This document shows, piece by piece, positions 789-34,480 of a stretch of DNA of 64,000 bases; position 1 is the first letter of the stretch, and every line of letters starts with the position of its first letter. The stretch lies in contig OX597837.1 of assembly GCA_951406725.2 (NCBI GenBank), positions 41,974,001 to 42,038,000 of the forward strand, read 5' to 3'. Source of the DNA: Octopus vulgaris (Eukaryota). The notes under the pieces are model-generated. The model saw nothing but the letters and a program-made list of their open reading frames with translations. It did no database searches and had not been told where the DNA came from. Position numbers and translations under genes: made by a program.

Positions 789-1116
789 AGGGATGTGCTT
801 GAATGGCAAGTGTTATGATCCGAGATCATCTGTTGGAACTAAAACGACTGCAATGTGAAAGACACGAGTTAAGCCATTCAGAAACACACAAAGACGGTTA
901 ACTTCACTTTAACATTTATTGTATGTAAAACGCTGTCAAAATTTTCCGTGCTTGAAACCGCGACCTGGTCACTGACAAATTGTGCCGCAGTTTTGTGCAG
1001 TGACCAGGTTGCAGCTTCAAGCAATGCAAATTTTGACAGCAGATTACAAACAATAAACGCTTAAGTGAAGCAAATTGTCTTCGGGGTGTTTCTGAATGGC
1101 TAACTTGTGTCTTTCA
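789..1116. mobile_element. Foldback element FB copy 1 (palindrome 856-1116) with outward-facing hammerhead-like motifs
   Basis: TGAAAGACAC...GTGTCTTTCA inverted arms; homologous to 20444-20779 and 34216-34480. Confidence 0.8.
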
Positions 1117-1126
1117 TGTTCCAATC

Positions 1127-1516
1127 ATATATATGTGTGTGTGTGTGTGTGTGTATGTGTGTGTATATGTGTGTGTATATATGTGTGCGTGTGTGTATAT
1201 ATATATACATATATACATATATATGTATATATATATATATGTGTGTATATATATATATATATATATACGCACATATATATGTGTGTGTGTGTGTGTGTGT
1301 GTAAATTTATATCTTATCAATAGATATATACCTATTTATATGTATAGATCTACTTATGTATATATCTATGTATATCCATCTATATATATATATATGCATC
1401 TATTTACACACACACACACACACACACACACACATCTGTACAAATATATATTTGTGAGTGTGTGCATGCATGTGTGTGTGTGTGTATATATATATATATA
1501 TATATATATATATATA
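1127..1516. repeat. Compound TG/TA/CA microsatellite
   Basis: Directly visible. Confidence 0.9.
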
Positions 1517-2307
1517 TTAGTATAATTGCTATTCTTTTGTATACAAGATGAAAGTAATTGCTATTCACTTTTAGCAGGAGGGTGTATGGTCACGTGTGTG
1601 TGGTGTGCACAACAGTGTGTGTGTGTCTGTGTGTGTCTGTCTGTACGTGTATGTTTGTGCTAGTATACTAGGTTTACAATACTACAATACATACTTAAAG
1701 AATCTCTCTCTAACCAACTCCAAAATTAAGACAAATAGACTCTTCAATGCTAAGTGAGATTTAACTGTTAATTGGCACACAATTGTTCAGTATCTTCTCT
1801 GGAGACACAATAGATATCTTTCACAAAAGGAAGGTGACAATATATGAATTGTTCACCTGTTGACTCATAGGTAGGTATCTATTATGAACCTAACCAAGTG
1901 TACAGCTGGCTAGAGTTAAGGTTAAGATATTTAAATTATCTTTCAGCAGCTCCTTATTAGCTTTATGAAGTGTGGAAATAATACAGATTTGCTATAGAAG
2001 TGTCTGAGGTAGCAATGATAACAGATCATTAGCGAGTGTTGATGTAACTAATACATATACATATACACACTGATAAAGAGAGAGAGAGAGAGAGAGATGA
2101 GACTACTGCATATGTATTTAGTACATAGAAGAGCCACCTGAGGTACTATTATTGCCAAGAATATACACACACACACATATATATATATATATATACATAG
2201 ACTGGAAAAACTGGGATGTATCTCATACCCACCCACCTCTCTCTCTCTCTCTCTCTCTCTATATATATATATATATATATATATATATATATATATATAT
2301 ATATATT

Positions 2308-2498
2308 TAGTATGTGACCTCCTCTGTATCACTATCGATTTTTTTCCTCTGTCTTCCCTTCTCCTATGTTTCCGACGAAGAGCTCCGCTCGAAACGTCAA
2401 ACCCTCCTTCTTCCCTTCTTTCCTGAGTGTCCAATAATACTTTATTTGTTCCACGTCCTTGCGTTGTTGTCTTTTTGTTTTCTTGTTTGGATTAACTT
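2308..2498 (+). mobile_element. PLE-like terminal fragment (family P1) inside (TA)n
   Basis: Flanked by (TA)n; shares hammerhead and downstream TTCCTGAG...TAATAC...GCGTTGTTGT...GGATTAACT with 7755-8000. Confidence 0.75.
2368..2402 (+). ncRNA. Minimal type I hammerhead ribozyme motif (U4C variant)
   Basis: Stem I GTTT/AAAC; core CCGACGA; stem II GAGC-TCC-GCTC; GAAA; palindromic stem III ACGT; GUC cleavage triplet. Confidence 0.7.
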
Positions 2499-2629
2499 TA
2501 TATATATATATATATGTCTGTATTTATATCTAATTGTCTGATATGATAAAGCTAATATCAAGGGAAAAATTTTTGTACCAAGATTCAACACTAAATTAGG
2601 AGTTTGACTTGTATACAAATAAATATAAA

Positions 2630-2966
2630 CGTGTGTGCATGTGTGTGTGTGTGCGTGTATGTGCGTGTGTGTGTGTATGTATGTATGTATGTGTGTATGT
2701 ATGTATGTATGTATGCAGGTGTGTGTGTATGTATGTGTGTATGTATGTATGTGTATGTATGTATGTATGTATGTGTGTATGTATGTGTGTATGTATGTAT
2801 GTATGTGTGTATGTATGTGTGTATGTATGTATGTATGTGTGTGTGTGTGTATGTATGTATGTATGTATGCATGCATGTATGCATGCCTGCTTGTATGTAT
2901 GCATGTATGTATGTATGTATGTAGGTATGTATGTATGTGTGTGTATGTATGTATATATGTATGTAT
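2630..2966. repeat. (TATG)n/(TG)n microsatellite
   Basis: Directly visible. Confidence 0.95.
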
Positions 2967-31012: not shown

Positions 31013-32197
31013 AGCTTTGAAAAAATTAACTTAAAATCAAACTGCACTCTTCAAAGCTCGCACCAAGAATAAGGACAAGATAAAGTTACTACCTGCTTTT
31101 ACAGCAAGTTGATGCAGGTAGTTTATCCTGAATATGTGCTGCAGATGTTGGGATGCATCTAATATGCTGTGTAATCTTTTACACCATCAAATATGTGTAT
31201 AGACACCACACACTGGTTATATAGCCTGCTACTAATACTTAAACTAATAACAATGTTTGGGGAAAGTCTGGAGACTAAAGTTGGTTCCGGCAACACAAGA
31301 AGAAGAAGGAGTAAAAATAACAAACAAACAAAACCAAAAACAACAACAGTGTGTGGTGGTGGTGGTGGTGGGAGGAGGGACGGGAGTGAAGGGTGTAGTT
31401 TACGGATGATGGACATTAACCACGATCAAACTGGTCTGTATTAACAGAATAAATCAACCAAGATAATATGCCATTCTAATACATAATCTGCAGAGATAGG
31501 TTTGGCAACATTTCTAAACTAATAAATGGTTATTTAAAAAAAAAAAATAAAATAAAAAAAATTAAAATAAAAATTAAAATAAAAAAAAAGTTGCATTATC
31601 AAAGAAACAGACTTGTGTTCTTTATTTTTATTTCTAGCTTTTGTTTTGTGTGTTAACAGTTGTGGTTGGTTGCTTGGTTGGTTATTGTCCTCACCACCAC
31701 CACCACCGCCACAGCCACCACCACCAGTTCTATTGATGGAACATGAATCAGCATCCCTTCATCTCCGTGAAGGATGAGATGAACATCACTCCAAGAACTC
31801 CGCGTCTGACTCATTACAGAAGCCTGAAAATTGGTGTAATTTGATATTGTCCAATAATAGCCATTATTATCAAATATCCAAATAGCGTTCTTTTTCAATA
31901 AACGTCAAATGTTTATCCATCTCTATTTATACATACACCCACTTATCCAGATATCTGCCTACGTGTGCGTGTATGTGTGTGTGTGTGTGTGTGTGTGTGT
32001 GTGTGTGTGTGTAATGAAGTAAGGCAAATTTACTAGTGTGTGCTTTTAGTAAGCACACCCTGCTGTGAAAAGCAAATACTATAATTAAACCACAGGCTTC
32101 TCTCTGTTTCTGTGACGAAAACCTGATTGATCTGGCTAAGTAAGTTCTGGTATGGGGATATGATGTACCCTTGTGGCACATAGCTTGTGCATCTACC

Positions 32198-32428
32198 TAT
32201 TTCTTTATTACCCACAAGGGGCTAAACACAGAGGGGACAAACTAGGACAGACATAGGTATTAAGTCAATTACATCGACTCCAGTGCATAACTGGTACTTA
32301 ATTTATCAACCCCGAAAGGATGAAAGGCAAAGTTGACCTCGGCGGAATTTGAACTCACAACGTAACGACAGACGAAATACAGCTACACATTTCGCCCGAC
32401 GTGCTAACATTACTGCCAGCTCGCCGCC
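32198..32428 (-). mobile_element. SINE-C full length
   Basis: Matches 16062-16292. Confidence 0.9.
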
Positions 32429-32789
32429 CTACCGTTTGTCAGTATCTGCTCAGGTCATCCTAGGTAACCCTCGAAGCAGTGCCCCAGACAGTTCTCATCC
32501 CTGTGAGGTACTTCCTCATCCACTGCGACCATGTGGCATGCAGGCAGCCAACCAACATGAGCCATGTCACCCAGGCTCTGATCTGATTAGCTTCAGTATT
32601 TATTGTTGCTTCAACAGCGATTAGTTACATATTCCAGTCTATAGGAATGTAGCACTCCATCGGATAAGATGATGAGGGTTCCAGTGTATGTATGTGCGCG
32701 TGCGCATGCATGCATGTATATGTGATTGCGCAAGTGTGTTTATATTAGTGTTGGGTGAGAACTAATACATTTTTAATAGAAATACTTTG

Positions 32790-33650
32790 CAGATGTGGCT
32801 GTGAGGTCTTGGGTTTAGTCCCACTACACAGCACCTTGGACATACTTCGAAATTCTGAGCATATTCATAAATGTTCAGGTACAGGAATGACTGGGTAGTT
32901 AAAAAGCGCATTTTGCAACCATGGGATTTTGGGTTCAGTCCCACTGCACAGTACTTTGGGCAAGTGCTTTCTACTATAGCTCCAGACAAACCAATACATA
33001 TATACATATATGTATGTGTATATATACATATATATACATATGTGTATGTATACATATATACATATATGTATGTGTATATATACATATATATACGTATATG
33101 TATGTGTATATATACATATATATATACATGTGTATGTATACATATATATACATATGTGTATGTATACATATATATGCATATATACATATGTGTATGTGTA
33201 TGTATACATATATATATACATATATGTATGCGTATGTATACATATATATACATATATACATATGTGTATGTATACACATATACATGTGTATGTGTACACA
33301 TATATATATATATATATATATATATATATATATACATATATGTATGTGTATGTATACATATATATACATATATACATATGTGTATGCGTATATATACATA
33401 TATATATATGTATGTATACACACACACACACACATATATATACACACATGCAAACGAGTGTATGGGTGTATATGATTGTCCCTGCTTACACCATCACTTG
33501 ACGACCAGTGTTAGCAGTTTACGTCCTAGCAACTTAGCGGTTTGGATAGGAGATCGACAGACATAAAAAAATAAACACTCGGGTTAATTTGTTCAACTAA
33601 AACCCTACAAGGTGGTTGCCCCAGCATGGCTGCAATTTAACGACAAACAA
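32790..33650 (+). mobile_element. Diverged SINE-A (two heads) with central microsatellite expanded to about 450 bp (32996-33447)
   Basis: GGGTT(T/C)AGTCCCACT twice; tail CCCCAGCATGGCTGCA. Confidence 0.7.
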
Positions 33651-34215
33651 GGGGAAAAAAAAAAAACAAAAATCAAAAAGAAAAGTTGTTATTGATTCTG
33701 TTCGATCAGAAGATGCAATAATTTTGTATCTGCGAGGCATGGATTAGATGCCTCCACACCATAATATAATAGTAGCGATTTGGTTACGATAAGAGATATT
33801 AATAATACAGCTGTTGCTAGATAGAGCATCACTGTTAATTAGTGACGACATTCAAATAAAGCCTTGCCTTTGATTTCAAATTGAACCCTATCCAATAAAA
33901 CAACAATCTCAGCGAGAGATATTTTCCCCCCTTAAATAAAAAATAATGGAATACAATATAGAGTAACGGAACTTTTTAGTCATGTTATTAGATTTGGCTA
34001 ATCAAAAGATAAAATCTTAACGATTTAATAAGGCATTAAAACTGTTCACAACAACCTCTACTCCCCCCACCACCACCACCACACTACACATGCGTGTGTG
34101 CTGAAACTGTGATGATATGTGATCGATAACTGATGAGGGACTGAGCATGTTCATGTCCATTGTGAGCATGTGAATTCCTCTTGTTGTTATATGCCACACA
34201 CACACACACATATTT

Positions 34216-34480
34216 AATTGCAGTTTGGAGGGTGTTTATAAGCCATTTAAAAACGCACAAAAACCATTAGATTCCGTGCTGCGCAGAATTTTGTCAGTGA
34301 ACAGGACGCGGTTTCAAATCGACAAATATATTTTGACAAATTAAATTTAAATGTTGAAGTGAATCTAATGGTTTTTGTGTTTTTAAATGGCTTATAAACA
34401 CCCTTCCACGCTGCAATTGTTTTTGTTTCAGCACACGATCTTAGATCAGGTCACTTGCTATGCAAGTACATCACTGTAAT
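34216..34480. mobile_element. Foldback element FB copy 3 (left arm internally deleted, right arm complete)
   Basis: Spacer CCGTGCTGCG, then TTTTGTCAGTGAACAGG; right end GCAAGTACATCACTGTAAT is the reverse complement of the left end of copy 2. Confidence 0.8.

What the first reader, a model, noticed from the sequence alone, without database searches (positions are those of the whole stretch)
789..34480. The foldback itself appears to be the mobile unit (three loci share the same centre)
Seen: FB copies at 789-1116, 20444-20779 and 34216-34480 share a central spacer (CCGTGCTGCG in copies 2 and 3, TGTGCCGCAG in copy 1). The complete outer end lies left in copies 1-2 and right in copy 3, implying a symmetric consensus of roughly 400 bp. 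Established: PLE insertions often create inverted 5'-truncated terminal repeats, whose junction would be expected to differ per insertion. Inference: a fixed junction suggests a non-autonomous palindromic PLE derivative that looks like a MITE but bears ribozymes. A read-through transcript from either side makes the antisense arm first, so the ribozyme would be sequestered in long dsRNA, a plausible ADAR or Dicer substrate.
Basis: partly seen in the sequence, partly recalled or inferred. Interest (0 to 1): 0.7.

Follow-up and report, generated by a model that had tools for sequence, protein, structure and literature searches.

The report
Hammerhead mini-retroelement that rebuilds its mirror
The three foldbacks are real but lopsided copies of an abundant ~210-base repeat carrying a predicted self-cutting RNA motif, and because each copy's two arms match each other rather than the same-side arms of other copies, the mirror half is likely rebuilt at each insertion by a Penelope-type retrotransposon instead of the foldback travelling whole.

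Summary
The three foldbacks exist, but they are not pieces of a symmetric 400-bp palindrome. Each has one long arm with a ~60-nt tail and one short arm that ends at the same base in 3 of 3 copies; copy 3 is inverted. The centres differ by several bases. Arms group by copy, not by side (32 of 34 informative columns). Contigs from three public runs show arms that stop at the 'centre' and run into unrelated AT-rich DNA, plus head-to-head joints with variably truncated partners. The centre is therefore the preferred 5' end of a ~210-nt single-arm unit, not an inherited junction. The arm holds a minimal hammerhead with a G3-C8 core swap. Inverted copy, one-sided tail and AT-rich targets are the described insertion pattern of Penelope-like elements; no autonomous partner was found. 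Possibly new: the 5' end coincides with a splice-acceptor-like site (7 contigs, one run). Folding supports ribozyme sequestration in read-through RNA; editing and small RNAs were not testable. New variant of a known kind; interest 0.33.

The parts
789..1125 (-). Copy 1: older, diverged subfamily; asymmetric foldback, tail on the left
   Evidence: arms 105 of 134 identical; 57-68% to arms of copies 2-3
789..990 (-). Copy 1 long arm (ribozyme-sense on minus), including tail at about 789-850; decayed hammerhead, core GUGACCA kept
991..1125 (+). Copy 1 short, tail-less inverted arm
20443..20779 (-). Copy 2: best-preserved asymmetric foldback, inserted in an (AAT/AAC)n tract
20443..20653 (-). Copy 2 long arm = the ~210-nt single-arm unit; its 5' end (20653-20651) reads CAG, the putative splice acceptor
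20443..20505 (-). Tail (~60 nt) present on one arm only; holds a 6-bp hairpin near the end
20586..20636 (-). Minimal type I hammerhead motif: 7-bp stem I, core GUGAACA (G3-C8 swap) plus one extra G, 5-bp stem II, GAAA, palindromic AAUAUU stem III, predicted cut after 20593 (UUU triplet); cleavage untested
20654..20779 (+). Copy 2 short inverted arm, starting at the equivalent of 20634; hammerhead damaged in stems II and III
   Evidence: (116 of 126 identical to its partner)
34216..34480 (+). Copy 3: same layout on the opposite strand, tail on the right
34216..34283 (-). Copy 3 short arm, with ~75 bp missing at 34274/34275 (removes the antisense hammerhead); keeps the 10 nt nearest the centre
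34284..34480 (+). Copy 3 long arm with decayed hammerhead (core kept, GAAA and stem II broken) and tail at about 34419-34480

Best explanation
The unit is a ~210-nt single arm (preferred 5' end, minimal hammerhead motif, ~60-nt tail) that is likely copied in trans by the reverse transcriptase/endonuclease of a Penelope-like element, and the foldback is likely assembled anew at each insertion. Shown: the asymmetric layout, arms grouping by copy, differing junctions, single arms and variably truncated partners in public contigs, AT-rich flanks. Inferred, by analogy with the anole element PAc: the enzyme cuts AT-rich or microsatellite DNA and starts reverse transcription at either of two sites ~60 nt apart, giving one arm with the tail and one without. 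Both copies (or a first strand and its fold-back second strand) run towards the same 5' end of a short template and are joined head to head. Because the template is short and its 5' end is preferred, independent insertions get centres within ~20 nt of each other. Inferred and weaker: that 5' end corresponds to the 3' splice site of the parent element's intron, which in D. virilis Penelope also abuts the hammerhead. A foldback transcript is predicted to bury its ribozyme in a ~135-bp duplex, so foldback copies are likely dead ends and single-arm or tandem sources likely supply the RNA.
For: Short arms end at one column in 3 of 3 copies; the tail is on one arm only. Arms group by copy: 32 of 34 columns for copies 1/2, 4 of 5 and 13 of 14 for the other pairs. 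Two of the four by-copy sites separating copies 2 and 3 (20560, 20554) are family-wide variants at 55%/45% of depth in X3, 41%/35% in X7 and 45%/42% in X11, so each copy's arms carry one subfamily's alleles. Contigs ending at 20648 go on into unlike AT-rich DNA (88 in X3, 55 in X7; agreement 0.41-0.43; median 52 and 99 nt), about as many as at the tail end 20443 (87 and 66). All 6 opposite-strand joints shown have one end at 20637-20652 and the other anywhere from 20507 to 20606 (rough post hoc chance 1e-5). The hammerhead is the only hit of a both-strand descriptor scan of the window; its core is invariant in 5 of 5 arms that cover it, except the free position N7. Literature: inverted 5'-truncated copy, one-sided 30-40-bp tail and microsatellite targets (PMC8557442); tail = stretch between two RT start sites, ATT cleavage (PMC11167929); opposite-strand minimal hammerhead pairs 100-700 bp apart, extra base at 9/10.1, palindromic stem III, intron end at helix I (PMC4209133).
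Against: No autonomous partner was found: no RT or GIY-YIG hit among 150 of 233 high-complexity window frames, and no relative of the arm's short open frame. In the window 3 of 3 copies are near-centred foldbacks and none is a single arm, so foldbacks may be the majority. The contig data cannot give the ratio: they favour diverged copies, and only 18 of 507 loose-end rows and 15 of 30 joints were shown. No joint with both ends near the centre is among those shown; such contigs may sit among the 96/63/7 that ran over the reference ends, or may be filtered. The raw-read run gave 0 laid reads (no test). The tail is ~60 nt, against 30-40 nt described. The descriptor scan also fired once in 4 of 20 shuffles, and Rfam gave no hammerhead hit. 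By-copy columns include adjacent sites and are not all independent events. The splice-site reading rests on 7 contigs of one run.
Confidence: 0.72

Rival explanations
1. The arms are ordinary 5'-truncated ends of a full-length autonomous PLE, not a separate short template. Reverse transcription stalls just upstream of the hammerhead, which fixes the apparent 5' end. The inverted arm is still made at insertion.
For: Seven X11 contigs and window copy 2 extend a few to ~20 nt further 5'. Severe 5' truncation is typical of PLEs (PMC8557442). Unchecked notes from other genomes report 5' ends piling just upstream of the hammerhead.
Against: The displayed DNA-run loose ends at 20637-20648 have agreement 0.41-0.53, so no common long upstream sequence shows; no coding partner was found.
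Confidence: 0.12
2. One reading: the foldback is transcribed and reinserted whole, and its arms are kept alike by gene conversion or hairpin repair, or each subfamily descends from its own foldback master.
For: 3 of 3 window copies are foldbacks with centres within ~20 nt and the same short-arm end. X3 depth of about 2,270 at the right end of the reference suggests tens of further near-centred foldbacks among traceable contigs.
Against: Junctions differ between copies 2 and 3, which are 87% alike. The longer 5' end is on the tailed arm in copy 2 and on the tail-less arm in copy 3. Only 1 of 34, 1 of 5 and 0 of 14 columns group by side. Single arms and variable partners exist. A per-subfamily master still needs a mechanism that rebuilds the centre.
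Confidence: 0.1
3. It is a DNA-level element (MITE, foldback transposon or non-autonomous Helentron), and the hammerhead motif is incidental or inherited.
For: Long inverted repeats, a small hairpin near one end, and ends in copy 3 that match as an inverted repeat at 7 of 8 bases.
Against: The termini are not inverted repeats beyond those bases (best 11 of 20); one end has a 60-nt unpaired tail; there is no fixed TSD; single arms and 5'-truncated partners occur; the hammerhead core is conserved across two subfamilies.
Confidence: 0.05

Closest known systems
[quoted passage not shown] 2021, PMC8557442; Arkhipova et al. 2013, PMC3846280; Schostak et al. 2008, PMC2377424; passages read)
   Same: Inverted 5'-truncated copy joined head to head; tail on one end only; microsatellite or AT-rich targets with hard-to-call TSDs; solo pLTRs and palindromes at the inverted junction are described.
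   Different: No coding region in any copy seen; very short unit with a sharply preferred 5' end; tail ~60 nt instead of 30-40; apparently very high copy number; partner not identified.
Minimal PLE hammerheads (Cervera and de la Pena 2014, PMC4209133; parts 1-2 of 4 read)
   Same: Type I, extra base between 9 and 10.1, palindromic stem III, pairs on opposite strands 100-700 bp apart (S. mansoni), intron 3' end next to helix I (D. virilis).
   Different: The core pair is G3-C8; the parts read report natural U3-A8 only. C3G/G8C is known as an engineered partial rescue (PMC11167929). Luense et al. (PMC5785218), which covers natural PLE hammerhead variants, was not available and may already list it.
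Anolis Poseidon element PAc (Frangieh et al. 2024, PMC11167929; parts 1-2 of 4 read)
   Same: Two internal RT start sites define the tail; ATT/AT-rich cleavage; hammerhead cutting not needed for insertion. This matches the two fixed outer ends and a 5' end lying ~55-60 nt upstream of the predicted cut site.
   Different: PAc is autonomous and tandem; no ORF was demonstrated here.
Animal non-LTR retrozymes (PMC7229834, passages; bioRxiv 10.64898/2026.07.22.740005, part 1 of 5)
   Same: Short non-coding hammerhead-bearing repeats, proposed to be PLE derivatives.
   Different: Retrozymes are head-to-tail tandem arrays that yield circular RNAs; the window copies are head-to-head pairs and their 5' end is not at the cut site.
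MITEs / foldback DNA transposons (PMC8969392, passages; other features recalled)
   Same: Small, non-coding, long inverted repeats, high copy.
   Different: Inverted repeats do not reach both termini, no fixed TSD, arms rebuilt per copy, hammerhead motif present.

Membership tests
Penelope-like element (EN+), non-autonomous derivative | Terminal repeat shared with an element encoding PLE reverse transcriptase and GIY-YIG endonuclease | tested here: inconclusive
   No genome held. No RT/EN Pfam hit in 150 of 233 window frames. The arm's open frame has no credible relative. Collection scans gave nothing or chance hits.
Penelope-like element (EN+), non-autonomous derivative | Minimal type I hammerhead in the terminal repeat | tested here: met
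   Motif at 20586-20636 minus; core kept in 5 of 5 arms that cover it. Activity untested.
Penelope-like element (EN+), non-autonomous derivative | Inverted 5'-truncated copy joined at the 5' end | tested here: met
   3 of 3 window copies; 6 opposite-strand joints with variable partner in X3.
Penelope-like element (EN+), non-autonomous derivative | Tail present on one end only (30-40 bp described) | tested here: met
   One-sided tail in 3 of 3 copies, but ~60 nt long.
Penelope-like element (EN+), non-autonomous derivative | Insertion into AT-rich or microsatellite DNA with variable or undetectable TSD | tested here: met
   6 of 6 window flanks are AT-rich or microsatellite, with no common TSD length; loose ends at 20443 are AT-rich with agreement about 0.5.
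Penelope-like element (EN+), non-autonomous derivative | Intron acceptor next to the hammerhead, as in D. virilis Penelope (not universal) | tested here: inconclusive
   7 X11 contigs (agreement 0.98, median 19 nt) continue into a branch-point-like CTAAC, a pyrimidine run and CAG on the sense strand; copy 2 carries the CAG. No spliced read was seen.
   By-side columns 1 of 34, 1 of 5, 0 of 14; junctions differ.
MITE / foldback DNA transposon | Inverted repeats at both termini | tested here: not met
   Best 11 of 20 matches between the termini in 3 of 3 copies; one end carries an unpaired tail.
MITE / foldback DNA transposon | Fixed-length TSD and cognate transposase | tested here: not met
   Longest flank repeats are 5, 14 and 6 nt, all inside microsatellite and not consistently abutting; no transposase hit in the frames scanned.
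Non-LTR retrozyme | Head-to-tail tandem units, each with a hammerhead | tested here: not met
   0 of 3 window copies are tandem. Arrays elsewhere are not excluded: one X3 joint 20609 to 20447 is of unstated kind.
Non-LTR retrozyme | Circular RNA monomers | not testable with these tools
   No raw RNA reads were offered.
Non-autonomous Helentron (features recalled) | Short subterminal inverted repeats, 3' hairpin, TT target | tested here: inconclusive
   A small 3' hairpin is present, but the inverted repeats are ~135 bp and rebuilt per copy; the target rule cannot be judged on 3 copies.

The most novel reading that the evidence does not exclude
A SINE-like parasite of Penelope-like elements, present in tens of thousands of copies, consists of exactly the parent's 'exon 2': it starts at the spliceosomal 3' acceptor, so splicing rather than ribozyme cutting or random truncation sets the 5' end of what is copied. 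Its consensus hammerhead uses a natural G3-C8 core. Each two-armed insertion creates a fresh, initially perfect ~135-bp hairpin, making the family a self-renewing source of double-stranded RNA for ADAR in what is probably a cephalopod genome.
Probability: 0.25. Interest if true: 0.62.

Novelty: new variant of a known kind. Interest (0 to 1): 0.33.

Why it matters
It corrects a tempting misreading: near-identical centres in PLE palindromes need not mean the palindrome is the mobile unit, and such elements are easily filed as MITEs. How PLEs make their inverted arm, and what sets the 5' end of the copied template, are open questions (self-priming was proposed in PMC3846280; PMC11167929 leaves later steps unvalidated). 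A short family with apparently tens of thousands of insertions, two fixed outer ends and a sharp 5' end would make both testable from one assembly. If the splice-acceptor link holds, it bears on why PLEs keep introns. If the host is an octopus (recalled from repeat content, not shown), the hairpins are candidate ADAR substrates; edits outside coding sequence overlap repeats in squid (PMC9068888, passages).

Tried and rejected
Whole genome: none held. General repeat finder swamped by microsatellites. Rfam: only microsatellite or hairpin miRNA-like matches below gathering score among the 150 of 332 rows shown, and no hammerhead hit on copy 2. My first idea that the centre is a perfect palindrome with uninformative orientation (note) was dropped: only a GC-N-GC pseudo-palindrome is there. 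Raw WGS run X22 gave 0 laid reads of 12.9 million, which is no test. No RNA holder was listed on record; X11 is only guessed to be RNA. Editing: X11 contigs show no excess of A>G or T>C places over DNA contigs (2 and 3, against 3 and 4 in X3), but contigs of different organisms cannot test editing. Depth of tail versus arm is about 1:1 in X3 and up to 1:2 in X7, and dips where copy 2 departs from consensus, so it was not used. PLE partner: Pfam on 150 of 233 frames gave four frames with hits, none RT, EN or transposase; the arm's 41-aa frame gave no candidate and five repeat-inflated hits judged spurious. Metagenome scans: 0 hits, then 6 hits in GC-rich contigs (55-72% GC) matching 42 nt of the profile at most, judged chance; viral contigs 0. 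The upstream extension is not elsewhere in the window (1 match at 2 mismatches, 1.6 expected). Short motifs of the arm were absent from the supplements of PMC13282606 and PMC8557442; exact-match only, and the first holds just 5,371 characters, so its repeat library was not seen. A taxon check through a SINE-derived frame found nothing. No tRNA in the window. Earlier findings by sequence and by genome: none. Print searches for a palindromic non-autonomous PLE, a natural G3-C8 core, or a splice-acceptor-fixed 5' end listed nothing that describes this family; most listed papers were seen as listings only, and subscription papers and Repbase/Dfam were not searchable.

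
Full report
CONTEXT. The window is non-coding, 36% GC and rich in microsatellites and a ~210-nt interspersed repeat. I take it to be octopus-like; that label is recalled from the repeat content and comes from no call (a check found nothing). No whole genome was held. The stretch is held by 20 of 24 listed public runs under four coded organism labels.

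OBSERVATION. The three foldbacks are real: 789-1125, 20443-20779 and 34216-34480, with folding z-scores of -17.1, -21.8 and -11.8 against 30 shuffles each. The quoted 10-mers lie at 981-990, 20640-20649 and 34274-34283. The deduced symmetric 400-bp consensus does not hold. With all six arms written from the centre outwards, the three short arms end at the same column (+/-1) and the three long arms carry a further ~60 nt. No trace of that tail lies beyond any short arm. Copy 3 is the same lopsided layout on the other strand, with ~75 bp missing from its short arm. The centres are close but not identical: 20653/20634 for copy 2, 20649/20642 for copy 3 (two alternatives score 1.5 points lower), and unresolved within about 20645-20650/20636-20642 for copy 1, all in copy-2 coordinates. 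The 'spacer' is the 5'-most part of the left-hand arm, which is the tailed arm in copies 1-2 and the tail-less arm in copy 3.

RIBOZYME MOTIF. A descriptor scan of both strands, allowing any Watson-Crick 3-8 pair, gave one hit in 64 kb, on the minus strand with G3 at 20629; 4 of 20 shuffles also gave one hit, so the scan alone is weak. The hit has a 7-bp stem I, core GUGAACA, one extra G, a 5-bp stem II, GAAA and a palindromic stem III. Stems I and II form in the minimum-energy fold of the single arm. The core is invariant in 5 of 5 arms that cover it, except the free position N7, and none of the 40 of 51 variant rows shown falls in it. An extra base at 9/10.1 and a palindromic stem III are listed traits of PLE hammerheads (PMC4209133, parts 1-2 of 4 read). 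G3-C8 is a partial rescue in the anole element (PMC11167929). Rfam has no hammerhead hit here. Only copy 2's long arm is intact; cleavage is untested.

IS THE FOLDBACK INHERITED WHOLE? If it were, left arms should share variants with left arms. Among columns splitting four arms 2:2 (terminal-gap columns left out), 32 of 34 group copies 1 and 2 by copy, 1 by side and 1 crosswise. For copies 2/3 the counts are 4, 1, 0 and for copies 1/3 they are 13, 0, 1 (61 columns only, because of the deletion). Some columns are adjacent, so events are fewer than columns. Within-copy arm identity is 116 of 126 (copy 2) and 105 of 134 (copy 1), against 57-68% between copy 1 and the others. Two by-copy sites of copies 2/3, 20560 and 20554, are family-wide variants at 35-55% of depth in three runs, so both arms of a copy came from one subfamily's template.

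BEYOND THE WINDOW. I laid four runs on one arm plus centre (20425-20669, 80% likeness). The raw-read run X22 gave 0 laid reads, which is no test. Contigs laid: 11,660 (X3), 7,908 (X7) and 1,221 (X11, guessed to be RNA). Summed depth in X3 is about 3 million against 33-67 for the single contigs shown, which suggests tens of thousands of arms; the tool warns this is no copy number. Loose ends pile at the tail end (20443: 87 contigs in X3 and 66 in X7; 20444: 62 in X3) and at the centre (20648: 88 and 55; 20637: 63 in X3). Those at the centre run on into AT-rich sequence with agreement 0.41-0.44, unlike the GC-richer start of a second arm, so I read them as single arms. All 6 opposite-strand joints shown have one end at 20637-20652 and the other at 20507, 20521, 20577, 20598, 20605 or 20606. 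Limits: only 18 of 507 loose-end rows and 15 of 30 joints were shown; each joint is one contig per run; some may be later deletions like that of copy 3; traceable contigs favour old copies; near-centred foldbacks may be among the 96, 63 and 7 contigs that ran over the ends, or may be filtered. The share of foldbacks is unknown, and the window itself has 3 foldbacks and no single arm.

WHY THE 5' END IS PREFERRED. It lies ~55-60 nt upstream of the predicted cut (20593), so cleavage does not set it. Seven X11 contigs continue past 20653 with one sequence (agreement 0.98, median 19 nt). On the ribozyme-sense strand this reads as a branch-point-like CTAAC, a pyrimidine run and CAG, ending at 20651; copy 2 independently carries the CAG. 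In D. virilis Penelope the intron's 3' end maps to the 5' end of hammerhead helix I (PMC4209133), after a 46-nt leader and a 75-bp intron (PMC2377424, passages). I infer that the arm is the parent's stretch from acceptor to tail. This rests on one run and perhaps one locus; an exonised single copy, or a polymerase stall before stem I, would also fit.

MECHANISM. Shown: asymmetric layout, arms grouped by copy, differing junctions, single arms, AT-rich flanks without a fixed TSD. Established: PLE insertions often carry an inverted 5'-truncated copy and a one-sided tail, and favour microsatellites (PMC8557442, passages); the tail is the stretch between two reverse-transcription start sites, the enzyme cuts at ATT, and hammerhead cutting is not needed (PMC11167929); palindromic junctions were read as self-priming (PMC3846280, passages); opposite-strand hammerhead pairs 100-700 bp apart were noted in S. 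mansoni. Inferred: a PLE enzyme copies a short template from two start sites ~60 nt apart and joins the products head to head near the template's 5' end, so independent insertions share a centre to within ~20 nt. Whether two cDNAs are joined or one folds back is not resolved; junction microhomology is 2 nt or less in copy 2. Foldback copies are likely dead ends.

MEMBERSHIP. It works like an EN+ PLE insertion, with hammerhead, inverted copy, tail and target type met. Formal membership is unproven because no partner was found. MITE and tandem-retrozyme features were tested and not met. PLEs cover 6.83% of the O. vulgaris genome in 190 families (PMC13282606, supplement row; main-text passages), so a partner is plausible if the taxon guess is right; that paper's repeat library was not visible and may already hold this family.

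NOVELTY. The architecture is known. Not found in my searches: a natural G3-C8 consensus, a ~60-nt tail, and a 5' end at a splice acceptor. Luense et al. (PMC5785218) could not be read and may cover the first. Other papers seen as passages only: PMC6765202, PMC9068888, PMC8969392, PMC7229834; part 1 of 5 of bioRxiv 10.64898/2026.07.22.740005, whose supplements are closed. Unchecked AI notes from other genomes, seen after my reading was formed, describe similar rebuilt palindromes and 5' ends piling near the hammerhead; they are not support, but they suggest the pattern is general and lower its surprise.

VERDICT. Observation partly confirmed; headline interpretation not supported; PLE link supported. 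New variant of a known kind, interest 0.33.

Noticed in passing
window:34216-34223 and 34473-34480; window:20443-20450 and 20503-20510: The two fixed outer ends share a short motif on the sense strand, C(T/C)G(C/T)AAT (copies 2 and 3), so both putative reverse-transcription start sites look alike and end in AAT next to AT-rich targets. Copy 1 does not clearly keep it.
   Followed up: partly
window:20446-20568 minus: A short open frame runs through the outer arm and tail, where PLE terminal repeats often hold the ORF start; no homologue found.
   Followed up: yes
window:4121-4330, 9679-9888, 19115-19324, 26851-27060, 40979-41188, 51062-51271, 52373-52582, 60688-60897 and others: A ~210-nt interspersed repeat with at least 8-11 copies on one strand (families D18 and D20), SINE-like; its resemblance to an octopus SINE is recalled, not tested.
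   Followed up: no
window:16731-17139: GC-rich tandem array of a 63-bp unit, 5.5 copies, 90% matches, open in several frames; Pfam hits to those frames look repeat-inflated.
   Followed up: partly
window:7626-7771: Near-perfect microsatellite-based hairpin with unique outer arms (top match); a separate small foldback, origin not examined.
   Followed up: no
window:7359-7450: Another ~90-nt hairpin-like stretch that draws several sub-threshold miRNA-family matches.
   Followed up: no
window:20459-20493 (run X3): A joint 20493 to 20459 at depth 418 and one 20609 to 20447 at depth 110, kinds not shown: possibly a subfamily with a duplicated tail segment and a tandem arrangement.
   Followed up: no
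window:20443-20648: Family-wide variation is dominated by G>A and C>T (27 of 47 places in X3), many at CpG, which suggests the copies are methylated.
   Followed up: no
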